Positions 3,721 to 62,247 of a stretch of 64,000 nucleotides of DNA are shown here, piece after piece; the stretch's first letter is position 1, and every line of letters begins with the position of its first letter. The stretch is taken from the NCBI GenBank assembly GCA_913009825.1, contig CAJVYQ010000008.1:14484-78483 (forward strand). The letters are read 5' to 3'. Below the pieces are notes generated by a model. The model searched no databases and was not told where the DNA came from. It saw only the letters and a program-made list of their open reading frames with translations. The stretch comes from an uncultured Deferribacteres bacterium. GTDB lineage: Bacteria; Zhuqueibacterota; JdFR-76; DREG01. Position numbers and translations under genes: made by a program.

Positions 3721-4029
3721 AATTATTATTTCCTTTCTCCATTCTTTAGCAAAACCTTTCCTGAGCTTACCGAAGGGGGAGGTTAGGAGTGGTTGAATTC
3801 AATTTTTTCAAAGAATTAAAATGTTACGAAATACCCAATCCTGAATAAGATTTCGTTTGTCTCGTGTAATTAGTGGGCTGAGTAGTTAAAAGGATTTTAT
3901 AAAACTGATCATCGGGTTGAATAGTAAAACTGTAAAGCGAAGAATGGCTAAAAGGTTCTTTAATAATTTTGTTCGTTCAAGTGTAACCATTCAGGTTTCT
4001 ACAGAGGTATACAATACTTCTTTTCGCCG

Positions 4030-5144: not shown

Positions 5145-5462
5145 TTATGATTTGATCATGGTCAGTACCATTTTCATTTTCTCCATCGCCTTCAATCCAT
5201 GAGGTTCATCGGCGGGCATAATGATCATATCCTCTTTTTCTAAAATATACGATTCGCCGGAAATGGAGATATCCACTTTGCCATCAAGAACATACACCAT
5301 GGCATCGAAGGGCGACGTATGTTCGCTGAGCGCCTGCCCTTTATCAAAGGCAAACAGAGTAACAATGCCGGTTTTTCTTTCAATCAGTGCTTTACTGACA
5401 ATGGAATCGGTTTGGTAATCAATCATTCCGGATAATTTTTGCGCCGTCATTTTTTCGCTCAT
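5145..5462 (-). CDS. Cupin-domain protein
   Basis: The 105-aa product has the cupin-2 barrel pattern (GQALSEHTSPFDAMVYVLDGKVDISISGESYILEKEDMIIMPADEPHGLKA). Confidence 0.7.
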   Translation of the reverse strand: MSEKMTAQKLSGMIDYQTDSIVSKALIERKTGIVTLFAFDKGQALSEHTSPFDAMVYVLDGKVDISISGESYILEKEDMIIMPADEPHGLKAMEKMKMVLTMIKS

Positions 5463-8116
5463 TATTTTCCTCCGTTTGCCATCTTTTTTAATTCGGCTAA
5501 TTTGGTTAAGGCCTGAAGCGGCGTTAAGTTATTGATATCGATTTCATGCAACTGCTGTTTAAACCGGTTCTCTTCTTTGCGAATGAAAAGATCCAATTGA
5601 GAAGAGCCGTTTTTCTGATTTGTTTTCGAACTGCGCGCCAATCTGGGTTGATGAGAAGGTGTCAGTTCATCATTTTCCAGGTTTGCCAGCACTTCACGGG
5701 CGCGGGCAATGACATGCTCCGGCAACCCCGCCAACCGGGCAACCTGAATTCCATAGCTGTGATCACAGCCGCCCGCCACAATTTTACGCAGGAATACTAT
5801 CTGATCTCCCCATTCCTTGACATCCACATTGTAATTTTTTACCCGGGGCAGAATCAGCGCCAACTCGGTCAATTCGTGATAATGGGTGGCGAACAGTGTT
5901 TTCGCGGCAACTTTTGGGTGATTGTGCAGATATTCCGCAACAGACCAGGCGATGGATAACCCATCAAATGTGGAGGTGCCGCGGCCGATCTCATCCAATA
6001 AAATCAAACTTTCGTGGGTAGCGTTGTTCAAGATATTCGCCATTTCGTTCATCTCCACCAAAAATGTGGATTCGCCGCCGGCCAGGTTGTCCGACGCTCC
6101 CACTCTGGTAAAAATCCGGTCTACTATGCCGATAACGGCGGATTTTGCCGGCACAAAGCTGCCCATCTGCGCCAAAAGTGTGATTAAACCAACCTGACGA
6201 ATATAGGTTGATTTCCCGGCCATATTCGGTCCGGTGATGATCAGCACCTGTTCCTCACCGGTGGATAAAAAGGTGTCGTTGGGAATAAATTGCTCGCCCA
6301 CGGGAAGCAAATTCTCCACTACGGGATGTCGTCCTTCTTTAATCTCGATAGTTTCGCCGTCATTGATAACCGGTTTTACATAATTTTCCGACCCGGCAAC
6401 TTCGGACAGGGAACGAACCACATCAAGTTGCGCAATCAAACGGGCGTTGTTCTGAATTACCGCCGATTGATCGGATATTTTTTGCCGGATATCTTCGAAA
6501 AGTTCATACTCAAGCGCCGCCATTTTTTCTTCTGCAGTCAGAACTTTTTCCTCGTACTCCTTCAGATCGGGCGTAATATACCGCTCCGCATTGACCAGCG
6601 TCTGTTTGCGAATGTAACTCTCCGGAACTTTGGTCAGGTGAGTTTTTGTTACTTCGATATAATAACCGAAAACTTTATTGTAGCCCACTTTAAGCGACGG
6701 AATTCCGGTTTTTTCCCGCTCCATTTCCTGCAGCGTGGCGATCCATTTCTTGCCGGAAAAAGCAATTTTACGATATTCATCCAGATCCCCATTGTAGCCT
6801 TCCCTGATCAATCTGCCTTCAGTAATGGTAATGGGCGGATCGTCCGTCACGGCGCGTTCAATTAAATCGGCCGTGTCTTGCAGGGGTTGTAGATTGCTGC
6901 AGATCCGTTTCACAAAATGCGATTCCATTTTCTGTAAAAGCTGTTTGATTTCCGGCAATTTCAACAAGGAATCCTTCAGCGCATTAAAATCCCGGCCGTT
7001 GCCGCGCCGGGCGGAAATTTTTGAAATCAGCCGCTCCGGATCACCGATGGATTTCAGCATTTTTTGCAGATCAGAGCGAAGATCGACCGAGTGGAATAAT
7101 TCTTCAACGGCATCCAGGCGGGCATTGATCTCCCGGACACTGCGTAATGGGAATTGAATCCAGTTTCGCAGCAAGCGCCCGCCCATTGGTGTGATAGTGC
7201 GGTCGATGATAGAAATCAGACTGCCTTCTTTACGTTCGCCCATCAGGGTAGTCAGAATCTCCAGATTGCGCAAAGTGGCCGGATCCAAAATCATGTATTG
7301 ACCGGGATAAGTTCGGTTCAACTGCCGGATGTGGCTCAATTCCGATTTTTTGTTCTCCTGCAGATAGTGAAACAGTACGCCCGCCGCACTGATTCCCGCA
7401 TCCAAATCTTCACAGCCAAATCCTTTCAACGAGGAAGTTTTAAAATGACGAGTGAGAGTTTCGTAAGCGAAGGTGTAAGAGAATAACCATTCTTCGAGCC
7501 TGGTGATGGTAAAATTGAGAATGTTGCGGACGTTTTTCTTCAAAAAGTCGGATTGTTCCCCGGAAACCAGAACTTCGGAAGGCTGGGAATTGAGCACATA
7601 ATCCTGCACATCTTTCAGCGAAAATTCGGTTACGGAAAATTCACCGGTGGTAAGATCGGCTTTGGCCAGGCCACAAATTTCACCCTTAAAATAAACAGAA
7701 ACCAGAAAATTATTCCGCTTGCTCTCCAGCATATCATCGGAGAAAACCGTGCCCGGCGTAACAACTTCGATCACTTCCCGCTTGACGATGGTTTTGGCTT
7801 TTTTCGGGTCTTCCACCTGCTCACAAATGGCCACCTTGTAGCCGGCTTTCACCATTTTGGCCAGGTAGCCCTGGACGGAGTGATGGGGAAATCCTGCCAG
7901 GGGAACAGCGCCCGAAGTGCCGTGGCCTCGTGAAGTTAGCGTCAAGCCTAAAACTTTCGAGGCGATCTTTGCGTCCTCAAAAAATAACTCGAAAAAATCG
8001 CCCATCCGAAAAAAGAGAATCTGCTCTTTATGTTTATTTTTGATAGACCAATATTGCTCCATCAAAGGGGTGATGTCAGCCATCGAATTCTTTCGTTCGT
8101 TTGTGTTAAAAATCAC
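5462..8116 (-). CDS. mutS: DNA mismatch repair protein MutS
   Basis: The 884-aa product has the mismatch-binding N-terminus (ITPLMEQYWSIKNKHKEQILFFRMGDFFELFFEDA), the Walker A motif GPNMAGKSTYIRQV, and STFLVEMNE followed by DEIGRGTSTFDGLSIA. The true start is probably the MADITPL Met at about 8086. Confidence 0.93.
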   Translation of the reverse strand: MIFNTNERKNSMADITPLMEQYWSIKNKHKEQILFFRMGDFFELFFEDAKIASKVLGLTLTSRGHGTSGAVPLAGFPHHSVQGYLAKMVKAGYKVAICEQVEDPKKAKTIVKREVIEVVTPGTVFSDDMLESKRNNFLVSVYFKGEICGLAKADLTTGEFSVTEFSLKDVQDYVLNSQPSEVLVSGEQSDFLKKNVRNILNFTITRLEEWLFSYTFAYETLTRHFKTSSLKGFGCEDLDAGISAAGVLFHYLQENKKSELSHIRQLNRTYPGQYMILDPATLRNLEILTTLMGERKEGSLISIIDRTITPMGGRLLRNWIQFPLRSVREINARLDAVEELFHSVDLRSDLQKMLKSIGDPERLISKISARRGNGRDFNALKDSLLKLPEIKQLLQKMESHFVKRICSNLQPLQDTADLIERAVTDDPPITITEGRLIREGYNGDLDEYRKIAFSGKKWIATLQEMEREKTGIPSLKVGYNKVFGYYIEVTKTHLTKVPESYIRKQTLVNAERYITPDLKEYEEKVLTAEEKMAALEYELFEDIRQKISDQSAVIQNNARLIAQLDVVRSLSEVAGSENYVKPVINDGETIEIKEGRHPVVENLLPVGEQFIPNDTFLSTGEEQVLIITGPNMAGKSTYIRQVGLITLLAQMGSFVPAKSAVIGIVDRIFTRVGASDNLAGGESTFLVEMNEMANILNNATHESLILLDEIGRGTSTFDGLSIAWSVAEYLHNHPKVAAKTLFATHYHELTELALILPRVKNYNVDVKEWGDQIVFLRKIVAGGCDHSYGIQVARLAGLPEHVIARAREVLANLENDELTPSHQPRLARSSKTNQKNGSSQLDLFIRKEENRFKQQLHEIDINNLTPLQALTKLAELKKMANGGK

Positions 8117-8397
8117 AACTATTCAGGCATGCTCTATATATTACCTAAATTGAGCGATTGTAGGGCGATTCGCTGAATCGCCAACCGGATTTACATTAAA
8201 AATGAAAATCCGTTTAGCCATTTAAAACAAACTCAAAAACAAGAGAATCGCCAATTCAGGTATTAACTATAATAACACTTCGACTAAGTTTATCCTGAAC
8301 TTATCGAAAAAGAAGGCTCGGCATGGTTTTTCTGCCCGGTCTGAGCGAAGCCGAAAGCCTACTGTGCGTTAAATAACCGGCATACCTGAATAGGTAC
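8117..8397. repeat. Family-4 MITE-like element (TIR GTAACTAYTCAGG) interrupted by a nested family-1 MITE
   Basis: The left terminus caactattcaggcatgc (8117-8133) pairs with the right terminus gcatacctgaataggtac (8380-8397). The internal segment cttcgactaagtttatcctgaac matches the copy at 15420-15604. Confidence 0.7.
8143..8261 (-). repeat. Family-1 MITE copy A (119 bp) with 3-bp target-site duplication ATT
   Basis: Its termini are acctaaattgagcgattg and gaatcgccaattcaggt, and it contains the internal perfect hairpin ggcgattcgctgaatcgcc. The flanking trinucleotide att occurs at 8140-8142 and again at 8262-8264. Confidence 0.8.
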
Positions 8398-8731
8398 AAA
8401 AAGTTAGGAAAATGGATGGTTTAAATCAAGAATAATTTGGAGAAGCGAAATAGATTGATGGGTCACCGGAGCAGCGGAATACTGAATTGAACGAATGTAA
8501 CCTTTACATAATTGGAGCGATTTTTTCATTTACAAGGATGCAAATCATTAAGATTCCTGCTTTCGCAGGAATGACACTCATTATTCGCCCCGGCAGGGGT
8601 TGAACTCCTGCCCAAGCATAAGAATTTGTGGAAAAGCCGCATGTTAGCTGCTGTTTCTTAATTCCCTAAAAAATGGATAACCGTAACTTTAAAAACCATC
8701 CGGCCAGATCTCTTTTTCGAGCTAAAGCTCG

Positions 8732-8854
8732 ACCAACTGAATTACTGTTTTTGAGTTTGTTTTAAAGGTCTAACGTGTTTTCATTTTTTCAGGTAAATCC
8801 ATAGAAATCAGGTTGGCGATTCAGCGAATCGCCCTACAATCGCTCAATTTAGGT
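8732..8854 (+). repeat. Family-1 MITE copy B with a decayed left TIR
   Basis: The right half ggttggcgattcagcgaatcgccctacaatcgctcaatttaggt is intact, while the left TIR is reduced to accaactgaatt. It is inverted relative to copy A, so the pair forms roughly 100-bp inverted repeats around a 470-bp repeat-rich core. Confidence 0.7.
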
Positions 8855-8919
8855 ATAATTAAAATTCTACAGATGTTTACAGCAGGCATCTGAATAGCCA
8901 CTCATTTTCAATTATTCAA

Positions 8920-9867
8920 CTAACTTTCCAGAACCAATCTCCCGGATTTGTAGGGTGTTTTTTCACCTTCCAGATACAATTCCAGATTTTCTCCGATCGA
9001 TTTCACTTTGCCCGCCGCTATTTTCTCAGCGGGTTTCTGAATCTCGTCGCGCCACAAGCTGATATTCCTACCGATGACCAGCGATCGGGTCCGATAAATT
9101 TCCAGTAGTCGACGGTAATCTCCCGCCAATAATATTTGATAATTGCGGTACAGAAAAGTAAGTAGCTGCGGAAAAACCATCCCCTGGGTTATCGCGGATT
9201 TTTCGGGAACAAAATCGGCAAGCGCTGCAGCTTCAGGCACAAACGGAGTCGGCTCGATGCCGGGCGAAGCTGCAACATTTACACCTATTCCCAGAACAGC
9301 GCCGGTAACCGAATTTCCCCGGGTGAAAGTATGAGCCAAAACACCGCTCACTTTAGCATCATCGATAAAAATGTCATTCATCCATTTTATCGCCGGTTTG
9401 CCTTGCAGCCAGGGGATTGCATCCAATGTCTGCAGTACCGATACAGCCGCAACAATCATAAAACCGGAAGCGAAATTTTTAATCATTTTATTTGGCGCCA
9501 CATAAGCGGACAGATGAATGTTGCCGGATAAACTGCACCAATTTCTGTTTTGAAAACCATGAAAATTTTTCCCTGCTCCGGCAAGACAGAGAACAGCAGC
9601 GGGAATTTTTCTGTTTTGTCGCACCAAATCGATCAACACATCGTACTGAGAAGCCGGTGCATTTTCAACTAAAAACAGATATCGCCAAAATTCTGATTTT
9701 TGTTCGTTTCGAAAAACAGCTTTCCCATTAAACAGCCGGATTAAGAGGTGTAACAGGTTTTTTTCCATGCCGGAAAAATCGACAGATTTCCACGGTTTTT
9801 CTTCCGGGAAATAATTTGCGGCAAAATCGGTCTGATCGGTAAATACTTTCAATGCAGCAAAAATCAC
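8920..9867 (-). CDS. Biotin--protein ligase family protein (BPL/LplA/LipB fold) without an N-terminal HTH
   Basis: The catalytic-core motifs KWMNDIFIDDAKVSGVLAHT and GAVLGIGVNV match the BirA catalytic domain. An N-terminal extension of about 120 aa has no similarity I recognise. Confidence 0.7.
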   Translation of the reverse strand: MIFAALKVFTDQTDFAANYFPEEKPWKSVDFSGMEKNLLHLLIRLFNGKAVFRNEQKSEFWRYLFLVENAPASQYDVLIDLVRQNRKIPAAVLCLAGAGKNFHGFQNRNWCSLSGNIHLSAYVAPNKMIKNFASGFMIVAAVSVLQTLDAIPWLQGKPAIKWMNDIFIDDAKVSGVLAHTFTRGNSVTGAVLGIGVNVAASPGIEPTPFVPEAAALADFVPEKSAITQGMVFPQLLTFLYRNYQILLAGDYRRLLEIYRTRSLVIGRNISLWRDEIQKPAEKIAAGKVKSIGENLELYLEGEKTPYKSGRLVLES

Positions 9868-10018
9868 CTTTGCTAAAATAGAGTAGGTCGACAGAACCTG
9901 TGCCGACCTACATTTGTTAACAACAACGTATAAACGTTTTTTCTCTCCGGAACCGTTTTTTTTGATTTCCGTTTTAAACCGGTTGTTTTTTATTTAAGAT
10001 GAAGAATGAACAATTGCC

Positions 10019-12271
10019 CTAACCATTGCCCTGTGCATCCATAACAGTGATGGCAGCCATATTCACAATATCATTCACTTCATCACCGCGCTGCAGAACA
10101 TGCACCGGTTTTTGCAATCCCATCAAAATAGGACCGATCGCTTCCGCTTTGCCCAGATGTTCCACCAATTTGTAGGCTGTATTTCCGGATTCCAGATTCG
10201 GGAAAATCAAAACGTTTGCGCCTCCTTTCAGGGTGCTGAACGGATAAGTTTCTTCAATAATACCCGGATCGACAGCGGTGTTGGCCTGCATCTCACCATC
10301 AACCATGAGGTTGGGTCTTTGCTCATGCAATATCTCCACGGCACGCTGCACTTTTCGGCTGGATTGCTGAAGTGTGCTGCCAAAATTGGAAAAAGAAAGC
10401 ATGGCAATTCTGGGTTCCACGCCAAATCGTTCCGCTACTTCTGCGGTACAGATTGCAATTTCTGCCAATTCCTCCGCGGTGGGATCAATAATTACCGTAG
10501 TATCTGCGAAGAAGTAAACTTCATTCTCTGTCAACATGATATATAACCCGGAAACTTTTGAGATACCCGGTTTCATGCTGATAATTTGCAGCGCGGGGCG
10601 AATGGTATCCGGGTAATGACCGGTAAGTCCGGCAACCATTCCGTCCACATCACCAAACTGGACCATCATGGCGCCAAAATAATTAAGATTTTGGATCATT
10701 TTTCTGGCTTCTACTTTGGTTACGCCGTGGCGTTTGCGCAAATCATACAATTCATCGATATAAACTTCCAATTTGGTCGAATTCACCGGGTCGACAATTT
10801 CGACACCTTTCAGCTCGAGATGGAGTCTTTTTTGATTTTCACGAATTAGTTTCGGATTGCCGAGCAAGATCGGTTTGGCAATATTTTCGCTTAAAATAAT
10901 TTGTGCGGCGCGCAAAATTTTATCTTCTTCACCTTCCGGAAAAACAATTTTTTTAGGATCAGATTTAGCCCGGTTGATGATAACCCGCATAATTTCCCTG
11001 GACCGTCCCAGCTTCGCTTCCAACTCTTCTTTGTATTTATCCAGATCAATTGTTTTTCGGGCCACGCCGCTATCCATTGCCGCTTTAGCCACTGCCGGAG
11101 CTTCCCACAAAAGGACGCGCGGGTCTAACGGTTTTGGAATAATATAGTCCGGACCAAATGAGAACTGCACATTTCCATACGCCTTGATCACCGAGTCAGG
11201 GACGTCTTCCTTGGCAAGGTCTGCCAGCGCCCGAGTCGCCGCCAATTTCATCTCTTCGTTGATAAATTTTGCGCCAACATCCAGTGCGCCGCGAAAGATG
11301 AATGGAAAACCCAAAACATTATTAACCTGGTTTGGATAATCCGACCGTCCGGTTGCCATAATTACATCATCACGGGCATCTTTTGCATCCTCGTAGGAAA
11401 TCTCCGGATACGGATTGGCCATAGCCAAAATGATCGGTTTATCTGCCATCGACTTAACCATCTCTTTGGTCACTGCATCTTTTACTGAAAAACCGGCAAA
11501 CACATCGGAGTCTTTCATAGCGTCGGCGAGAGTTCTGGCATTCGTTTCCCGGACGAACTTTTCTTTATACGGATTCATTCCCGCTTCACGGCCTTTGTAG
11601 ATCACTCCTTTGGAATCACAAAGGATTAAATTTTCTTTTTTTACACCAAGTTTAATATAATAGTTTGCACAGGCAATCCCGGCCGCACCGGCGCCATTGC
11701 ATACAACCTTCACATCGCCAATGGATTTGCCGACAATTTCCAGCGCATTTAACAGACCGGCGCCGGAAATGATCGCCGTACCGTGTTGATCATCGTGAAA
11801 AACCGGAATGGACATCTCTTTCTTTAAAGTTTCCTCGATATAAAAACATTCGGGCGCTTTGATATCTTCCAGATTGATGCCGCCAAAAGTGGGTTCCAAC
11901 AGTTTACACAGTTTGATCACATCTTCCGGGTCCTCTGAATTGACTTCGATATCAAATACATCCACATCCGCAAACCGTTTGAAGAGAACCCCTTTGCCCT
12001 CCATAACCGGTTTGCCGGCAAGCGGGCCGATATTGCCAAGCCCGAGAACCGCCGTGCCATTGGAAATGACCGCCACCAAATTTCCTTTGGCAGTGTACTC
12101 AAAAGCGGCATCCGGATCGTCATGAATGACATTACAGGGAATTGCCACACCCGGCGTGTAAGCCAGGGCCAGGTCTCGCTGGGTAATACAGGGTTTTGTC
12201 GCCACTACCTCAATTTTCCCGCGCTTTTTTCCGCTGTGATAGTTCAGCGCATCTTCCTTTGTGATCAGCAT
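10019..12271 (-). CDS. maeB: NADP-dependent malic enzyme with a C-terminal phosphotransacetylase-like domain (MaeB type)
   Basis: The 750-aa product has a malic enzyme N-terminus ([60 protein letters not shown]) and a PTA-like C-terminal half. Confidence 0.9.
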
Positions 12272-12552
12272 GTTTCAATCTCCTTAAAATAAATAAAACA
12301 GATAAATTCCTTTGTTGTAACTCAACAATAAACAATTTTTCCGGTTTCATTTTATCCCCTGCGCTCCGCTCATTCCGAAACATTTTCGCCCCGGCCTTCA
12401 TTGCGGTACCTGTTTGATTATAACAGGTTCGATCTCCAAAATTGCCAGACAAACTTACGATATAACGCAAAAAAAGTCAATACGAAAACGTTGAATAATA
12501 AATCGTGTAAAAAAATATTCAGACAAACAGAAAACACGGTTACAGGCAATAA

Positions 12553-12580
12553 AAACAAAAAGTTGCCGGGTTCTCGGCTG
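12553..12580 (-). terminator. Candidate intrinsic terminator downstream of the CoA-transferase gene
   Basis: A gccgggttctcggc palindrome is followed on the minus strand by a T-rich run (aactttttgtttttatt). Confidence 0.4.
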
Positions 12581-12585
12581 GAAAT

Positions 12586-13881
12586 TCAGAGGATATTTTT
12601 CTCTGCTGCAAAACGCTCCAACTCCCCGCGAAAATTGGGATGGGCAATATTAATCAAAGCTTTCGCCCTTTCGCGCAGGCTTTTACCGTGCAGATAAGCC
12701 ACACCATATTCCGTCACCACATAATGCACATCACCACGACTGGTTACCACTCCCGCGCCTTCTTTGAGATGGGACACAATCCTGGAAAAAACGCCGTTTT
12801 TGGTCACGGAAGGAACGGCAATAATTGGTTTACCGTGTTTAGAACGGGTGGCGCCTCGAATAAAATCAACCTGTCCGCCAAAACCGGAATAGATGCGATA
12901 GCCGATGGAATCCGAACAAACTTGCCCGGACAAGTCCACTTCGATGGCGGAATTGACGGCTACCATTTTATCGTTTTGAGCCACCACGAAGGGGTCGTTG
13001 GTGTAATCGCAGGGTCTGCATTCGATCACCGGATTGTTATCGACAAAATCATACAATTCTTTGCTGCCCAAAATGAAAGTGGCAATCACCTTTCCTTTGT
13101 GCAGGGTTTTTTCAGAACCGGTAATGATTCCGGATTCGATAGCGTCCATAATGCCGTCCGACGCCATCTCCGAATGAATGCCGAGATTCTTTTTATCTTT
13201 CAGGAAAAACAGGGTAGCGTTGGGAATTCCGCCAATCCCCAACTGCAATGTGGCACCGTCTTCGATCAGGTCTGCAATATATTTTCCGATTTTCTTTTCC
13301 ACATCGGTGAATTCACCTAATTTCAACTCCGGTAATTCTTCCGAGACCTCTACAATCCGGTCGACGCGGGAAACATGGACAAAAGAATCGCCGAGGACGC
13401 GGGGCATATTTTCATTTACCTGGGCGATGACAAATTTAGCATTTTCCACCGCGGCTTTGGTGCACAACGTTTCCACACCATAAGAGAGGAAACCGTGTTC
13501 ATCCGGCGGCGACGTATGGATGACAGCCACATCGATTGGCTGTTCGCCGCTGTGAAACAGGTTTGGGATTTCATACAGGAAGATAGGCACATAATCCGCG
13601 CGCCCTTCATTTACCGCCCGGCGATCCGCCGGGCCGACAAAAAGAGAACGATGGCGAAAATGTCCTTCCATCCCGGGGGCAGAGAGCGGATCGCTGCCAA
13701 GGAGCAGTACATGAATCATCTCCACCTCTTCCAATTCATCTTTTCGGGCCGCCAGCGCATTCAGCACCACATAAGCAGTGGCGGCATTGCCGGAAATATA
13801 GACACGATCATGACTTTTGATCTCCAAAGCCGCTTTTCCCGGGGTTACAACTTTGCTCCGATATTGCTCAATCCAGCGCAT
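12586..13881 (-). CDS. Acetyl-CoA hydrolase/transferase family protein (succinyl-CoA:acetate or 4-hydroxybutyrate CoA-transferase-like)
   Basis: The 431-aa product carries family motifs across its length (HDRVYISGNAATAY ... GIGGIPNA ... SGFGGQVDFIRGA). Confidence 0.8.
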   Translation of the reverse strand: MRWIEQYRSKVVTPGKAALEIKSHDRVYISGNAATAYVVLNALAARKDELEEVEMIHVLLLGSDPLSAPGMEGHFRHRSLFVGPADRRAVNEGRADYVPIFLYEIPNLFHSGEQPIDVAVIHTSPPDEHGFLSYGVETLCTKAAVENAKFVIAQVNENMPRVLGDSFVHVSRVDRIVEVSEELPELKLGEFTDVEKKIGKYIADLIEDGATLQLGIGGIPNATLFFLKDKKNLGIHSEMASDGIMDAIESGIITGSEKTLHKGKVIATFILGSKELYDFVDNNPVIECRPCDYTNDPFVVAQNDKMVAVNSAIEVDLSGQVCSDSIGYRIYSGFGGQVDFIRGATRSKHGKPIIAVPSVTKNGVFSRIVSHLKEGAGVVTSRGDVHYVVTEYGVAYLHGKSLRERAKALINIAHPNFRGELERFAAEKNIL

Positions 13882-15419: not shown

Positions 15420-15604
15420 GTTACTACTCAGGCATGCTTGTTGTTGGATGTACGGGAAGCCTTCGACTGAGTTTATCCTGAGCTTGACGAAGGGCTCAGG
15501 CCGGATTTAATAGCCATGCTAAGCGCCTGCCTGCTGCGGGCAGGGAGTCGAAGCGTGATTGCAGTTAATTTTTTATGCATACCTGAGTAGTTACTTTCAG
15601 ATTT
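15420..15604. repeat. Family-4 MITE-like element (185 bp) lying 19 bp upstream of the response-regulator start codon
   Basis: The TIR gttactactcaggcatgc (15420-15437) pairs with gcatacctgagtagttac (15587-15604). The internal sequence is related to the 8117-8397 copy and contains the hairpin gcctgcctgctgcgggcaggg. Confidence 0.8.
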
Positions 15605-20046: not shown

Positions 20047-20154
20047 AATTAGCGTCTGACCGAAAACTCTGAAAAACAGTAAAAAACGTCATTCCTGCTG
20101 TGCCCGAGGCAGGCGGGAATGACGGAAAAGTGGGGTTTTCGTTCAGGCACTATT
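20047..20154. repeat. Family-3 MITE-like element (AATTAGYGTCTGA termini with an internal GTCATTCC...GGAATGAC hairpin)
   Basis: The left terminus aattagcgtctgaccgaaaactc and the hairpin gtcattcctgctgtgcccgaggcaggcgggaatgac are present, with a degenerate right terminus gttcaggcactatt. A paralogous copy lies at 54993-55100. Confidence 0.65.
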
Positions 20155-20162
20155 TACAGCAA

Positions 20163-25474: not shown

Positions 25475-25565
25475 ACCTTTTTCACCGGTTATTATTATCA
25501 AAAAAAATTCTTCTCAGGGTGAACTGATTGAATGATTAACAGATATAAGACCATTCTTCCTTTTA

Positions 25566-25630
25566 GCCACAGAAATGAAATGCCGCAGATTTTATTAATT
25601 TTTTATTTCTGCGGCATTTCATTTCTGTGG
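25566..25630. repeat. Family-6 palindromic element (23-bp perfect arms GCCACAGAAATGAAATGCCGCAG) that may act as a bidirectional terminator
   Basis: The arm gccacagaaatgaaatgccgcag is followed by a 19-nt AT-rich loop and then ctgcggcatttcatttctgtggc. A related copy lies at 61927-61984. Confidence 0.8.
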
Positions 25631-25705
25631 CTAAAATTTGTTTTATAATTTGATGAGGCGGTTCAATGTTCCGCCAGTCTTTTTAAATGGATACACGCAC
25701 ACCTT

Positions 25706-29568: not shown

Positions 29569-29885
29569 CTCAGCCCGCCTGATAGTGAACCATCAGGCTA
29601 AGAAAAGGCAGCGCTATAAATAGCGCTGCCGGGCAGGATGCTTTAGCATCCTTTTTACTCTCAGCCCCGTGGTTCTCCACGGGGCGCCATGGCATAGATT
29701 GAGTGCTTTCTTTTTAACCCGACTGAATCAGCTCAGCCCGCCTGATAGTGAACCATCAGGCTAAGAAAAGGAAGCGCTATAAATAGCGCTGCCGGGCAGG
29801 ATGCTTTAGCATCCTTTTTACTCTCAGCCCCGTGGTTCACCACGGGGCGCCATGGCTTAGCCAGGCAGCCCGCTCGAAAGTCGGG
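29569..29885. repeat. Tandem duplication of two roughly 163-bp units of a multi-hairpin element (family 5)
   Basis: Unit 1 is about 29569-29731 and unit 2 about 29732-29885, and they are about 97% identical. Each unit carries four hairpins: cctgatagtgaaccatcagg, cagcgctataaatagcgctg, ggatgctttagcatcc and ccccgtggttctccacgggg. A related single unit sits inside 39205-39363. Confidence 0.85.
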
Positions 29886-32537: not shown

Positions 32538-32693
32538 ACCTAAATTGAACGATTCTTAGCCTGAAACAACCACCCAAAGAGTTTTGTCATTCTGCCTGCC
32601 CGACGAACCGCAGGCGGGAAAGAATCTTGTTAGTTCTGTGCGCTAAACCAACAAGATTCCTACGGAATGACATTAGAATCGCTCAATTCAGGT
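32538..32693. repeat. Family-2 MITE (same 18-bp TIR as family 1, with a different core) flanked by TSD TAG
   Basis: The termini are acctaaattgaacgattc and gaatcgctcaattcaggt. The flanks read tag at 32535-32537 and tag at 32694-32696. The core contains gtcattctgcctgcccgacgaaccgcaggcgggaaagaatc and gtcattccgtaggaatc. Confidence 0.8.
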
Positions 32694-35896: not shown

Positions 35897-35989
35897 AAGA
35901 ACCTCCGCTTAAATTTGAATTTAAAGATTGATGAATTATCAACAAAAACAACATTGTTTCACATATAACCGGTATTCACTTATTTAGAT

Positions 35990-36094
35990 CCTGAATTGAG
36001 CGATTCTAATGTCATTCCGTAGGAATCTTGTTAATTTATTGCTAATATTTAAAAAGATTCCTCCTGAATGACATGAGAATTGCTCAATTTAGGT
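35990..36094. repeat. Family-2 MITE copy (about 105 bp) abutting and providing the 3' end of the hepT remnant
   Basis: Its first 43 nt (cctgaattgagcgattctaatgtcattccgtaggaatcttgtt) are identical to the right end of the 32538-32693 copy. The right terminus gaatgacatgagaattgctcaatttaggt overlaps the hepT stop codon at 36089-36091. Confidence 0.75.
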
Positions 36095-42184: not shown

Positions 42185-42303
42185 ACCTGAATTGAGCGAT
42201 TCTCTTGTTTTTGACCTTGTTTTTTTTACTAAACGGATTTTCATTTTTAATACAAATACGGCTGGCGATTCAGCGAATCGCCCTACAATCGCTCAATTCA
42301 GGT
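42185..42303 (+). repeat. Family-1 MITE copy C (119 bp) with TSD CTC, nested inside a second palindromic element
   Basis: The termini are acctgaattgagcgattc and gaatcgccctacaatcgctcaattcaggt (the last 18 nt are the TIR), with the internal hairpin ggcgattcagcgaatcgcc. The flanks read ctc at 42182-42184 and ctc at 42304-42306. The outer inverted repeats are ctctaaaaagacccggcaggttt (42158-42180) and aaacctgccgggtctaaaac...tttttagagt (42353-42396). Confidence 0.85.
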
Positions 42304-45962: not shown

Positions 45963-46082
45963 ACCTAAATTGAGCGATTTTCTTGTTTTTAAGCTTAATG
46001 CTGAAACCAAAAAGGTTTTCATTTCTAATAGTAATCTCTGCTGGCGATTCAGCGAATCGCCTTACAATCGCTCAATTTAGGT
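45963..46082 (+). repeat. Family-1 MITE copy D (120 bp) with TSD TTG
   Basis: The termini are acctaaattgagcgatt and aatcgctcaatttaggt, with the internal hairpin ggcgattcagcgaatcgcc. The flanks read ttg at 45960-45962 and ttg at 46083-46085. Confidence 0.85.
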
Positions 46083-54670: not shown

Positions 54671-54992
54671 TTGATAATACCCTATTCCAAATACAGCTCC
54701 TCCGGTAGATACGGGAAATAACATGCCAACGCCAATTTCCTGCGCATCTCCAAACGTAATCTGCTGATCGGTCAAAAATAGTTCTGAAGATGAAAGCAAA
54801 AGTAAACTTTCATCCTGAACCGTTTGATACCAATCTCTACCATGAGAAACTGCCATAGGATTCTTCAAGTAAATGGAACGATTCAACCCACGAAATACAC
54901 GAAGCACACAAAAGGTTCTGCAAAATGAAAAAGCTCTGAATTCTGATGTCTTTCATTTATTTTGCGGGCATTCCGACTAGTTACCATTAAAT

Positions 54993-55100
54993 AATTAGTG
55001 TCTGACCGAAAACTCCTTTTTTCTGTCATTCCCGCCGTGCCTGAAGCAGACAGGCGAAAGCGGGAATCCATAACATCTTGTTTTCATTCAGACACTAATT
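54993..55100. repeat. Family-3 MITE (108 bp, 21-bp TIR AATTAGTGTCTGAMYGAAAAC) between mraZ and rsmH
   Basis: The left terminus aattagtgtctgaccgaaaac pairs with the right terminus gttttcattcagacactaatt. The internal hairpin is gtcattcccgccgtgcctgaagcagacaggcgaaagcgggaatc. Confidence 0.8.
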
Positions 55101-61926: not shown

Positions 61927-61984
61927 CTACAGAAATGAGACATCACAAAAAAAAATCATTTCTGCGGCATCTCATTTCTGCGGC
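61927..61984. repeat. Family-6 palindromic element, second copy
   Basis: cagaaatgagacatc ... an A9 loop ... tcatttctgcggcatctcatttctgcggc shares the GCCGCAGAAATGA core with 25566-25630. Confidence 0.7.
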
Positions 61985-62247
61985 TAAAAGTAATCGATTT
62001 TCATTCCCGGATCCATTACGATTAAACTTATTCAATCTTCAAAGGATGAAGCAGCTACCGAATTTCCAGTCTCTACTCTCTCCCTTTTCCCGGAATAGAT
62101 ATTGCCTTGCGGGCATATTCACCGGCAAGAATTTTTCGGATGCCCGGCAGCGAGAAATCGGCTAACTGCAATTTAAACCGGTGCAAAATCTTTTGCAAGA
62201 TATTTTTTATTCGCGGTTCGAAACATTGCCATTTGGCATGCGGCATC

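What the first reader, a model, noticed from the sequence alone, without database searches (positions are those of the whole stretch)
8117..8919. Nested and composite repeat architecture in the mutS-birA spacer
A family-1 MITE (8143-8261, TSD ATT) sits inside a family-4 TIR element (8117-8397). A second family-1 copy with a decayed left TIR sits 470 bp away in inverted orientation. The whole 800-bp spacer is therefore bracketed by roughly 100-bp inverted repeats. The core also contains GTCATTCC...GGAATGAC hairpins like those in families 2 and 3. MITE-into-MITE insertion records successive waves of mobilisation. The inverted pair could behave as a composite unit.
Basis: seen in the sequence. 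Interest (0 to 1): 0.55.

Follow-up and report, generated by a model that had tools for sequence, protein, structure and literature searches.

The report
Nested mobile repeats upstream of mutS
The DNA between a biotin-ligase gene and the mismatch-repair gene mutS holds small non-coding transposon relics inserted one inside another, which is ordinary bacterial genome wear, though here they sit between mutS and its likely promoter.

Summary
The repeats are real. A 119-bp family-1 MITE (8143-8261, 3-bp duplication ATT) sits inside a family-4 element (8119-8393). A second family-1 copy lies inverted at 8746-8854. Independent assemblies reproduce the arrangement, so it is not an assembly artefact.

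A relative with 95% MutS identity carries family 4 at the same site without family 1, which is a clean empty site. That relative lacks family 4 at the window's second family-4 locus (15424-15590). Both families are therefore insertions, not a conserved RNA, and Rfam finds nothing.

- Copy B's "decayed TIR" is a deletion junction. The deletion removed its inner end and about 100 codons of a 123-aa ORF that is intact in the relative.
- The "composite unit" is unsupported. It has no flanking duplication, and the relative lacks both copies.

New findings:
- Families 1-3 share their 17-bp terminus with full-length IS1380-family elements. They belong to a cross-phylum group of short elements that make 3-bp duplications; the family is described as making 4-5 bp.
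- Family 4 with its nested family 1 lies 7 nt downstream of a conserved promoter-like motif for mutS. This stretches the leader from about 39 to about 320 nt.

Verdict: ordinary MITE biology, new members of a known kind, modest interest.

The parts
5462..8083 (-). mutS coding sequence; the ATG at 8083 is the conserved start
   Evidence: Pfam MutS domains I-V. The N-terminus MADxTPLMEQYW aligns with the relatives' starts.
8084..8118 (-). Residual native mutS leader, between the family-4 left terminus and the ATG
   Evidence: Colinear with relative L001, except for a 7-nt patch next to the terminus.
8119..8393 (+). Family-4 non-autonomous element. Its termini are CTATTCAGGCATGC and GCATACCTGAATAG, and it is 153 bp without the nested insert.
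   Evidence: Inverted termini. A second copy lies at 15424-15590. It is present at this site in L001, absent in L002/L004/L110, and absent at locus 2 in L116.
8143..8261 (+). Family-1 MITE copy A (IS1380-type termini), nested in family 4. Its 3-bp duplication ATT lies at 8140-8142 and 8262-8264.
   Evidence: Alignment with the other copies. Empty site in L001: the 122-bp indel equals 119 bp plus 3 bp.
8157..8184 (-). Outward-facing promoter-like hexamers inside family 1 (TTGGCG-16-TACAAT), pointing at mutS
   Evidence: Consensus scan. The count of such sites is not above chance. The same -10 hexamer is reported for the outward promoter of ISEcp1 (PMC9330008).
8401..8429 (-). Conserved promoter-like motif for mutS: -35 TTGATT (8429-8424), a 17-nt spacer, then -10 TAACTT (8406-8401). 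It ends 7 nt from the family-4 terminus.
   Evidence: Found upstream of mutS in L002, L004 and L110, at 56, 108 and 27 nt from the start codon. The hexamers are conserved, while the spacer between them has diverged in L110.
8483..8751 (-). Ancestral intergenic sequence, orthologous to the relative's region downstream of BPL/ORF123
   Evidence: 71% identity over 269 nt to L116/L117.
8553..8572 (.).
   Evidence: Read from the sequence. The relative has orthologous sequence GTCCTGCGAAAGCCGGAAT.
8692..8760 (-). Pseudogene remnant: the last 23 codons of a 123-aa ORF that is intact in the relative, here with an in-frame stop
   Evidence: tblastn 16/23 identical, E=2e-6.
8746..8854 (-). Family-1 copy B, inverted relative to copy A and truncated. 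The outer terminus is intact, the inner terminus is deleted, and it carries a 10-nt internal insertion.
   Evidence: Alignment. Junction ...CTCAAAAACA|GTAATTCAG versus the relative's GCCAAAACA|GTCATTCAA.
8855..8919 (.). About 64 nt of unexplained sequence between the BPL stop and copy B. It contains CTATTCAGATGCC, which resembles the family-4 terminus.
   Evidence: No similarity to the relative beyond that of shuffled sequence, and no repeat elsewhere in the window.
8920..9852 (-). Biotin-protein ligase (BPL/BirA-like) coding sequence
   Evidence: Pfam BPL_LplA_LipB. The source protein P0121 is 310 aa.

Best explanation
The BPL-mutS interval is a layered record of insertions by non-autonomous DNA transposons, plus one deletion.

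1. A roughly 153-bp family-4 element inserted 7 nt downstream of the -10 hexamer of the ancestral mutS promoter. This happened before the window lineage split from a relative with 95% MutS identity.
2. After that split, a 119-bp family-1 MITE inserted 24 nt inside family 4 and made a 3-bp duplication (ATT). It would have been mobilised in trans by an IS1380-family transposase, whose terminal repeats it shares.
3. A second family-1 copy landed downstream of BPL in the opposite orientation. A microhomology-mediated deletion then removed its inner terminus and most of the neighbouring 123-aa ORF.

Shown: the element boundaries, the duplications, the empty sites, the order of events, and the IS1380 affiliation of the family-1 terminus.

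Inferred:
- mutS is still transcribed from the conserved promoter-like motif, so its leader now carries about 280 nt of nested hairpin-forming repeat.
- Alternatively, mutS is driven by the outward TTGGCG-16-TACAAT inside family 1.
- The transposase is supplied from elsewhere in the genome.
For: - Family 1 has 4 copies against 0 expected, with defined ends and 3-bp duplications.
- L001 is colinear with the window only after 8143-8264 is removed.
- Family 4 at locus 2 is absent from L116, and both flanks are colinear.
- Family 4 is absent upstream of mutS in L002, L004 and L110, which keep the promoter motif 27-108 nt from the start codon. In the window the distance is 320 nt.
- The ORF123 remnant and the deletion junction are documented.
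- The same terminus bounds a 1,906-bp element in L058, with a 478-aa ORF and a TCG/TCG duplication, and an ORF in L039. Both ORFs score above the NCBIfam IS1380 cut-off: 250 and 221 bits against 180.
- 27 of 41 paired elements have exactly 3-bp flank repeats.
- The locus is reproduced in independent assemblies.
- The leader folds as nested stems, with z = -5.7.
Against: - No IS1380 transposase lies in the 64-kb window, and the rest of the source genome could not be read. An autonomous partner in this organism is therefore unproven.
- The 3-bp duplication departs from the 4-5 bp stated for IS1380 (PMC12116815).
- Family 4 has only two full copies plus one partial copy. Its target duplication is unresolved: TAA at locus 2, perhaps GTAC at the mutS site. 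It has no identified transposase, and its conserved core is a hairpin module shared with unrelated repeats.
- L001 shows only 38 nt of family 4 before the contig ends.
- L001 and L116 come from the same sample, but it is not proven that they come from one genome.
- The promoter is inferred from conservation only. The scan for promoter-like sites is not above chance.
Confidence: 0.85

Rival explanations
1. The two inverted family-1 copies and the DNA between them act as one composite transposon.
For: Both outer termini are intact, and the outer 51 nt match at 50 of 51 positions. In principle a transposase could use these two ends.
Against: - The outer ends share no flank duplication (ATT vs ATA), whereas 27 of 41 genuine elements have one.
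- Copy A has its own ATT/ATT duplication and a precise empty site in the relative.
- The relative lacks both copies, yet keeps the intervening sequence in place.
- No second copy of the interior exists in the window or in the fetched loci.
Confidence: 0.03
2. The repeats are conserved structured RNAs or regulatory leaders rather than insertions.
For: Both family-4 copies lie 34-44 nt upstream of a start codon in the same orientation. The leader folds well, with z = -5.7. The family-4 core is a widespread hairpin module.
Against: - Rfam gives no match, even at E <= 1.
- Both families differ in presence or absence between close relatives, with exact boundaries.
- The strong fold is the trivial result of terminal inverted repeats.
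- Two copies are too few to infer a positional rule.
Confidence: 0.04
3. The inverted family-1 pair serves as substrate for homologous recombination that inverts the segment of about 600 bp carrying the mutS promoter. That would make an on/off switch for mismatch repair.
For: - The arms are roughly 100 nt and inverted, with a 51-nt stretch that is nearly identical.
- The promoter-like motif lies between them.
- Between two assemblies of the same species, 5 differences cluster in 6 nt of copy A, and L113's version there matches the 42-kb family-1 copy. This suggests ectopic gene conversion among family-1 copies.
Against: All three assemblies of the locus have the same orientation. Only about 51 nt of high identity is available. 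Family 1 has no site-specific recombinase nearby. No read-level evidence exists.
Confidence: 0.04

Closest known systems
MITEs derived from bacterial insertion sequences, such as Correia elements of Neisseria or RUP of Streptococcus pneumoniae (recalled from general knowledge)
   Same: They are short (about 100-270 bp), have no ORF, carry terminal inverted repeats identical to those of a full-length IS, have fixed-length target duplications, occur in many copies, sit between genes often next to promoters, and differ in presence or absence between close relatives.
   Different: The termini match IS1380-family elements. No paper describing IS1380-derived MITEs turned up in the library. The group spans several phyla of anaerobic sediment bacteria and has very diverse interiors.
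IS1380 family (ISEcp1, ISPme1)
   Same: Full-length elements with the same 17-bp terminus encode a transposase above the NCBIfam IS1380 equivalog cut-off. Family 1 carries an outward-facing promoter-like site whose -10 hexamer, TACAAT, matches that reported for ISEcp1 (PMC9330008).
   Different: The duplication is 3 bp here, against the 4-5 bp stated for the family (PMC12116815). The window elements are non-autonomous. No one-ended gene capture of the ISEcp1 kind is seen.
Nested transposon insertions, which are common in plant genomes
   Same: The younger element interrupts the older one with its own target duplication, and this gives a relative chronology.
   Different: Here the chronology is also confirmed independently, by an empty site in a sister lineage.
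Mobile-element control of mismatch repair, such as the SpyCIM1 island in the S. pyogenes mutS-mutL operon, and the polymorphic mutS-rpoS region of enterics (recalled from general knowledge)
   Same: Mobile DNA sits at a variable junction next to mutS and could change its expression.
   Different: This locus shows no sign of reversible excision or of any expression effect. The elements are passive relics in the leader.

Membership tests
MITE (non-autonomous DNA transposon) - family 1 | Short, with no coding capacity | tested here: met
   119-120 bp; no ORF.
MITE (non-autonomous DNA transposon) - family 1 | Terminal inverted repeats shared with an autonomous IS | tested here: met
   The 17-bp terminus is identical to the ends of the 1,906-bp element in L058, which carries a transposase ORF.
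MITE (non-autonomous DNA transposon) - family 1 | Target-site duplication of fixed length | tested here: met
   3 bp at three of the four window copies (the fourth, copy B, is truncated) and at 27 of 41 paired elements.
MITE (non-autonomous DNA transposon) - family 1 | Presence/absence polymorphism with a precise empty site | tested here: met
   In L001, the 122-bp indel equals the element plus one duplication.
MITE (non-autonomous DNA transposon) - family 1 | Autonomous partner in the same genome | not testable with these tools
   None in the window. The rest of the source genome could not be retrieved.
IS1380 family | DDE transposase matching the family model | tested here: met
   NF033539 scores 250 and 221 bits against a cut-off of 180, for the L058 and L039 ORFs bounded by the same terminus. 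Pfam DDE_Tnp_1_4 also matches.
IS1380 family | 4-5 bp direct repeats (PMC12116815) | tested here: not met
   3 bp in 27 of 41 elements, including the full-length L058 copy.
IS1380 family | Outward-directed promoter at one end, as in ISEcp1 and ISPme1 (PMC9330008) | tested here: inconclusive
   TTGGCG-16-TACAAT lies next to the terminus, but this is a consensus match only.
MITE - family 4 | Terminal inverted repeats and multiple copies | tested here: met
   14-nt termini; two full copies plus a partial copy in L001.
MITE - family 4 | Presence/absence polymorphism | tested here: met
   Absent at locus 2 in L116. Absent upstream of mutS in L002, L004 and L110.
MITE - family 4 | Consistent target-site duplication | tested here: inconclusive
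   TAA/TAA at locus 2. The mutS site has no clean repeat in the window, though GTAC is possible using the L001 flank.
MITE - family 4 | Identified autonomous partner | tested here: not met
   No further copies with these termini. Core matches lie in unrelated repeats.
Composite transposon | One target duplication flanking the whole unit | tested here: not met
   ATT vs ATA.
Composite transposon | The unit is found as a block at other sites | tested here: not met
   The interior is unique in the window and the fetched loci. In the relative the interior is orthologous and lacks the flanking copies.
Known structured RNA (Rfam) | Match to a covariance model | tested here: not met
   No hit at the gathering score across the window, and no hit at E <= 1 in 7900-9200.

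The most novel reading that the evidence does not exclude
The two inverted family-1 copies flank the mutS promoter-like motif. They could mediate RecA-dependent inversion of that segment of about 600 bp, giving a heritable but reversible switch of mismatch-repair expression: a phase-variable mutator built from MITEs. A weaker version is that the nested MITEs in the leader simply retune mutS expression in this lineage.
Probability: 0.04. Interest if true: 0.75.

Novelty: new member of a known kind. Interest (0 to 1): 0.3.

Why it matters
The case shows a dated, layered history of MITE activity in an uncultured sediment bacterium of the FCB/KSB1 group, confirmed by empty sites in a sister lineage.

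It also ties a previously unclassified set of short repeats, found across several phyla, to IS1380-type transposases that make 3-bp rather than 4-5-bp duplications.

Biologically, the insertions sit between mutS and its conserved promoter-like motif. They could therefore affect the expression of mismatch repair and hence the mutation rate. That effect is untested, and the phenomenon itself is ordinary.

Tried and rejected
- Exact-protein look-ups of the window's MutS and malic enzyme, and of P0001, found nothing. The source contig beyond the window was never obtained.
- tblastn of the genes that relatives carry at this junction (OAD alpha and beta, PEPCK) found no remnants in the spacer.
- The metagenome scan for family 4 by terminus-gap-terminus gave 0 hits.
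- The scan by family-4 core gave 14 stretches, but all lie in unrelated repeats without family-4 termini.
- The 64 nt next to the BPL stop could not be matched to anything.
- A possible third family-4 copy at about 3744-3885 was inspected and judged unconvincing.
- The promoter/terminator scan gave no excess of promoter-like sites and no terminator.
- The literature search found no description of IS1380-derived MITEs, but the library is incomplete.
- The resemblance of copy B's inner end (TAATTCAGTTGGT) to the family-1 terminus was rejected as coincidental. That stretch is orthologous coding sequence in the relative.

Full report
**Setting.** The interval 8084-8919 lies between two genes on the minus strand.
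- Downstream is mutS (5462-8083), with Pfam MutS domains I-V.
- Upstream is a biotin-protein ligase gene (8920-9852).
- MutS homologues place the organism among uncultured KSB1/Calditrichota-like bacteria.
- The source protein is deposited as a 'Bacteroidetes bacterium' MAG.

- The repeat finder and a blastn self-comparison show inverted arms at 8142-8192/8805-8855 (51 nt, 98%) and 8187-8241/8746-8800 (55 nt, 80%).
- A 41-nt family-1 probe hits four sites in the window, where shuffles expect none.
- The four copies align with sharp ends, ACCTRAATTGAGCGATT...AATCGCTCAATTYAGGT. Their 3-bp flank duplications are ATT at 8143-8261, GAG at 42185-42303 and CAA at 45963-46082.
- Family-4 termini occur as two inverted pairs, 8119/8393 and 15424/15590.
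- Deleting the family-1 copy plus one ATT restores the 23-nt distance from the terminus to the CTTCGAC core, as in the other family-4 copy.
- The same 1 kb is 100% identical in an NCBI assembly (L114) and 99.5% identical in an ENA assembly from a different run (L113). A Logan contig (L115) breaks inside copy B, as expected for a repeat. This rules out an assembly artefact.

**Comparison with related genomes.**
- The closest relative (MutS 95% identical, Logan sample ERR15087787) gave two contigs.
- L001 begins 74 nt upstream of mutS. It contains the family-4 terminus at the same position, followed by family-4 interior that runs straight across the family-1 insertion point.
- L001 aligns with the window only after 8143-8264 is removed, that is 119 bp plus a 3-bp duplication. 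This is a textbook empty site.
- More distant relatives (L002 at 79%, L004 at 77%, L110 at 73%) have neither family upstream of mutS.
- L116, from the same sample as L001, reaches the window's second family-4 locus and lacks the element there. Both flanks are colinear up to CTACTCAGG...CCTGAGTAG.
- Both families are therefore insertions. Family 4 at mutS is older and family 1 is younger.
- Rfam gives no hit across the window at the gathering score, and none in the spacer at E <= 1.

**Copy B is truncated, not decayed.**
- In L116 and L117 the BPL gene is followed by an intact 123-aa ORF with no convincing Pfam match.
- The window keeps only its last 23 codons (8760-8692): 16 of 23 residues identical, an in-frame stop, E=2e-6. 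It also keeps about 200 nt of orthologous downstream sequence; the shared block runs to 8483 at 71% identity.
- Copy B follows the family-1 consensus to ...CTCAAAAACA and then continues as ORF123 sequence. Compare ...CTCAAAAACA|GTAATTCAG with the relative's GCCAAAACA|GTCATTCAA.
- A deletion with AAAACA microhomology therefore removed the inner terminus of copy B and roughly 100 codons of ORF123.
- The apparent 'decayed TIR' is coding-sequence residue.
- About 64 nt next to the BPL stop (8855-8919) match nothing and remain unexplained.

**The composite-unit idea.**
- The outer ends at 8143 and 8854 are intact, but they are flanked by ATT and ATA.
- By contrast, 27 of 41 genuine paired elements have an exact 3-bp repeat.
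- Copy A has its own duplication and its own empty site.
- The relative keeps the interior without either copy.
- Nothing suggests that the pair ever moved as a unit.

**What mobilises family 1?**
I estimate about 70 matches by chance for a pattern of this specificity.
- Hits are concentrated in Desulfobacterales MAGs, with many per genome. They also occur in Chlorobium, Fibrobacterota, Bacteroidales, Calditrichaceae, Phycisphaerae, Thermotogae and MAGs binned as Bathyarchaeia.
- Most are paired elements of 100-270 bp with unrelated interiors.
- L058 contains a 1,906-bp element with both termini, a TCG/TCG duplication and a 478-aa ORF. L039 has a 454-aa ORF next to the terminus.
- Both ORFs exceed the NCBIfam IS1380 equivalog cut-off: 250 and 221 bits against 180. 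Both also match Pfam DDE_Tnp_1_4.
- Families 1-3 in the window, including 32538-32693 and 35989-36094, share this terminus.
- They are therefore IS1380-type MITEs.
- The 3-bp duplication differs from the 4-5 bp stated for the family (PMC12116815).
- No IS1380 transposase lies in the window.

**Family 4.**
- This family is less well characterised.
- A terminus-gap-terminus scan of metagenomes found nothing.
- Its conserved core (CCTTCGACTRAGTTTATCCTGAGCTTGNCGAAGGGCTCAGG) is a hairpin module that also occurs inside unrelated repeats with other termini, and in tandem arrays.
- Its target duplication is TAA at locus 2. It is unclear at the mutS site, where the 7 nt next to the terminus differ at 5 positions between the window and L001.

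**Position relative to mutS.**
- Relatives share a promoter-like motif upstream of mutS: TTGATT, 17 nt, then TAACTT, TAATTT or TACATT.
- The hexamers are conserved, while the spacer between them has fully diverged in L110. The motif lies 27-108 nt from the start codon.
- In the window the motif is at 8429-8401. The family-4 terminus begins 7 nt downstream of the -10 hexamer, and the start codon is 320 nt away, or about 39 nt without the insertions.
- By inference, the mutS transcript starts at the edge of family 4 and carries both elements in its leader.
- As RNA, that leader folds into nested stems: -101 kcal/mol, z = -5.7. This is an expected result of the inverted termini.
- Family 1 also carries an outward TTGGCG-16-TACAAT aimed at mutS. 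IS1380 members such as ISEcp1 are known for outward promoters (TTGAAA-18-TACAAT; PMC9330008).
- The scan is not above chance. The other three family-1 copies point antisense to their neighbouring genes.
- Any effect on mutS is untested.

**Verdict.**
- The successive-waves interpretation is supported and can now be dated.
- The 'decayed TIR' and 'composite unit' readings are rejected.
- This is ordinary MITE biology with new family members. Two points stand out modestly: an IS1380-type clade with 3-bp duplications spread across phyla, and nested insertions within the mutS leader.

Noticed in passing
They carry sub-terminal GTCATTCC...GGAATC hairpins. The first has a TAG/TAG duplication.
   Followed up: partly
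window 8218-8223 vs L113: Across 6.9 kb, the window and an independent assembly of the same species differ at 8 mismatches and one gap. Five of these differences cluster in 6 nt of family-1 copy A. L113's version there equals the 42-kb copy (TAGTAAAAAAAAC), which suggests ectopic gene conversion among family-1 copies.
   Followed up: partly
window 8112-8118 vs L001 40-46: The 7 nt directly next to the family-4 terminus differ at 5 positions between the window (TTGTGAT) and the 95% relative (GTACAAC). The surrounding leader is otherwise largely conserved. This may be a footprint, an independent insertion or a small inversion.
   Followed up: no
window 8855-8919: About 64 nt between the BPL stop and copy B have no counterpart in the relative. 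They contain CTATTCAGATGCC, which resembles the family-4 terminus, so this may be a solo end of another element.
   Followed up: partly
L002, L004, L110, L111, L116 vs window 8920-13881: The gene upstream of mutS differs in every relative: OAD beta, PEPCK, acetyl-CoA hydrolase, deformylase, or BPL/ORF123. Enzymes of the PEP-pyruvate-oxaloacetate node (malic enzyme, PEPCK, oxaloacetate decarboxylase) swap in and out next to the biotin ligase. This is a hotspot of gene-order change.
   Followed up: partly
L118-L131 (metagenome contigs): The hairpin module CCTTCGACTRAGTTTATCCTGAGCTTGNCGAAGGGCTCAGG recurs in unrelated short repeats. These include a family bounded by GGYTGTCTCAAAA termini (L119, L120, L124, L125, L131) and tandem arrays (L121, L123/L126). 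It is sometimes adjacent to a GTCATTCCCG...CGGGAATC hairpin (L118).
   Followed up: no
window 15424-15590 flanks vs L116: Besides the TAA/TAA repeat, the window has 13 extra nt relative to the relative's empty site. They form an imperfect longer direct repeat (ATCTGAAAGTAAC / GTTTGAAAAAATA) around family 4.
   Followed up: partly
window 29569-29697 and 29732-29860: Two 129-nt direct repeats, 98% identical, lie 163 nt apart start to start.
   Followed up: no
window 25561-25636 and 61958-61989: A perfect 29-nt inverted repeat (TTTTAGCCACAGAAATGAAATGCCGCAGA) has an 18-nt loop. A 94% identical copy of one arm lies 36 kb away.
   Followed up: no
window 20112-20156 and 54992-55036; GGAATGAC sites: A further repeat family of 45 nt (84% identical, inverted) contains GGGAATGAC. 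GGAATGAC occurs 10 times in the window against 2.6 expected.
   Followed up: no
L023, L039 (MAGs labelled Bathyarchaeia), L080 (Thermotogae): The same bacterial IS1380-type terminus, and in L039 the transposase too, appears in contigs binned as archaeal or as distant phyla. The cause is either cross-domain transfer or binning contamination.
   Followed up: no
window 3744-3885: A weak family-4-like core (68%) at 3744-3774 and CTGAGTAGTTA at 3878-3888 may be a degenerate third family-4 copy. No left terminus was found.
   Followed up: partly
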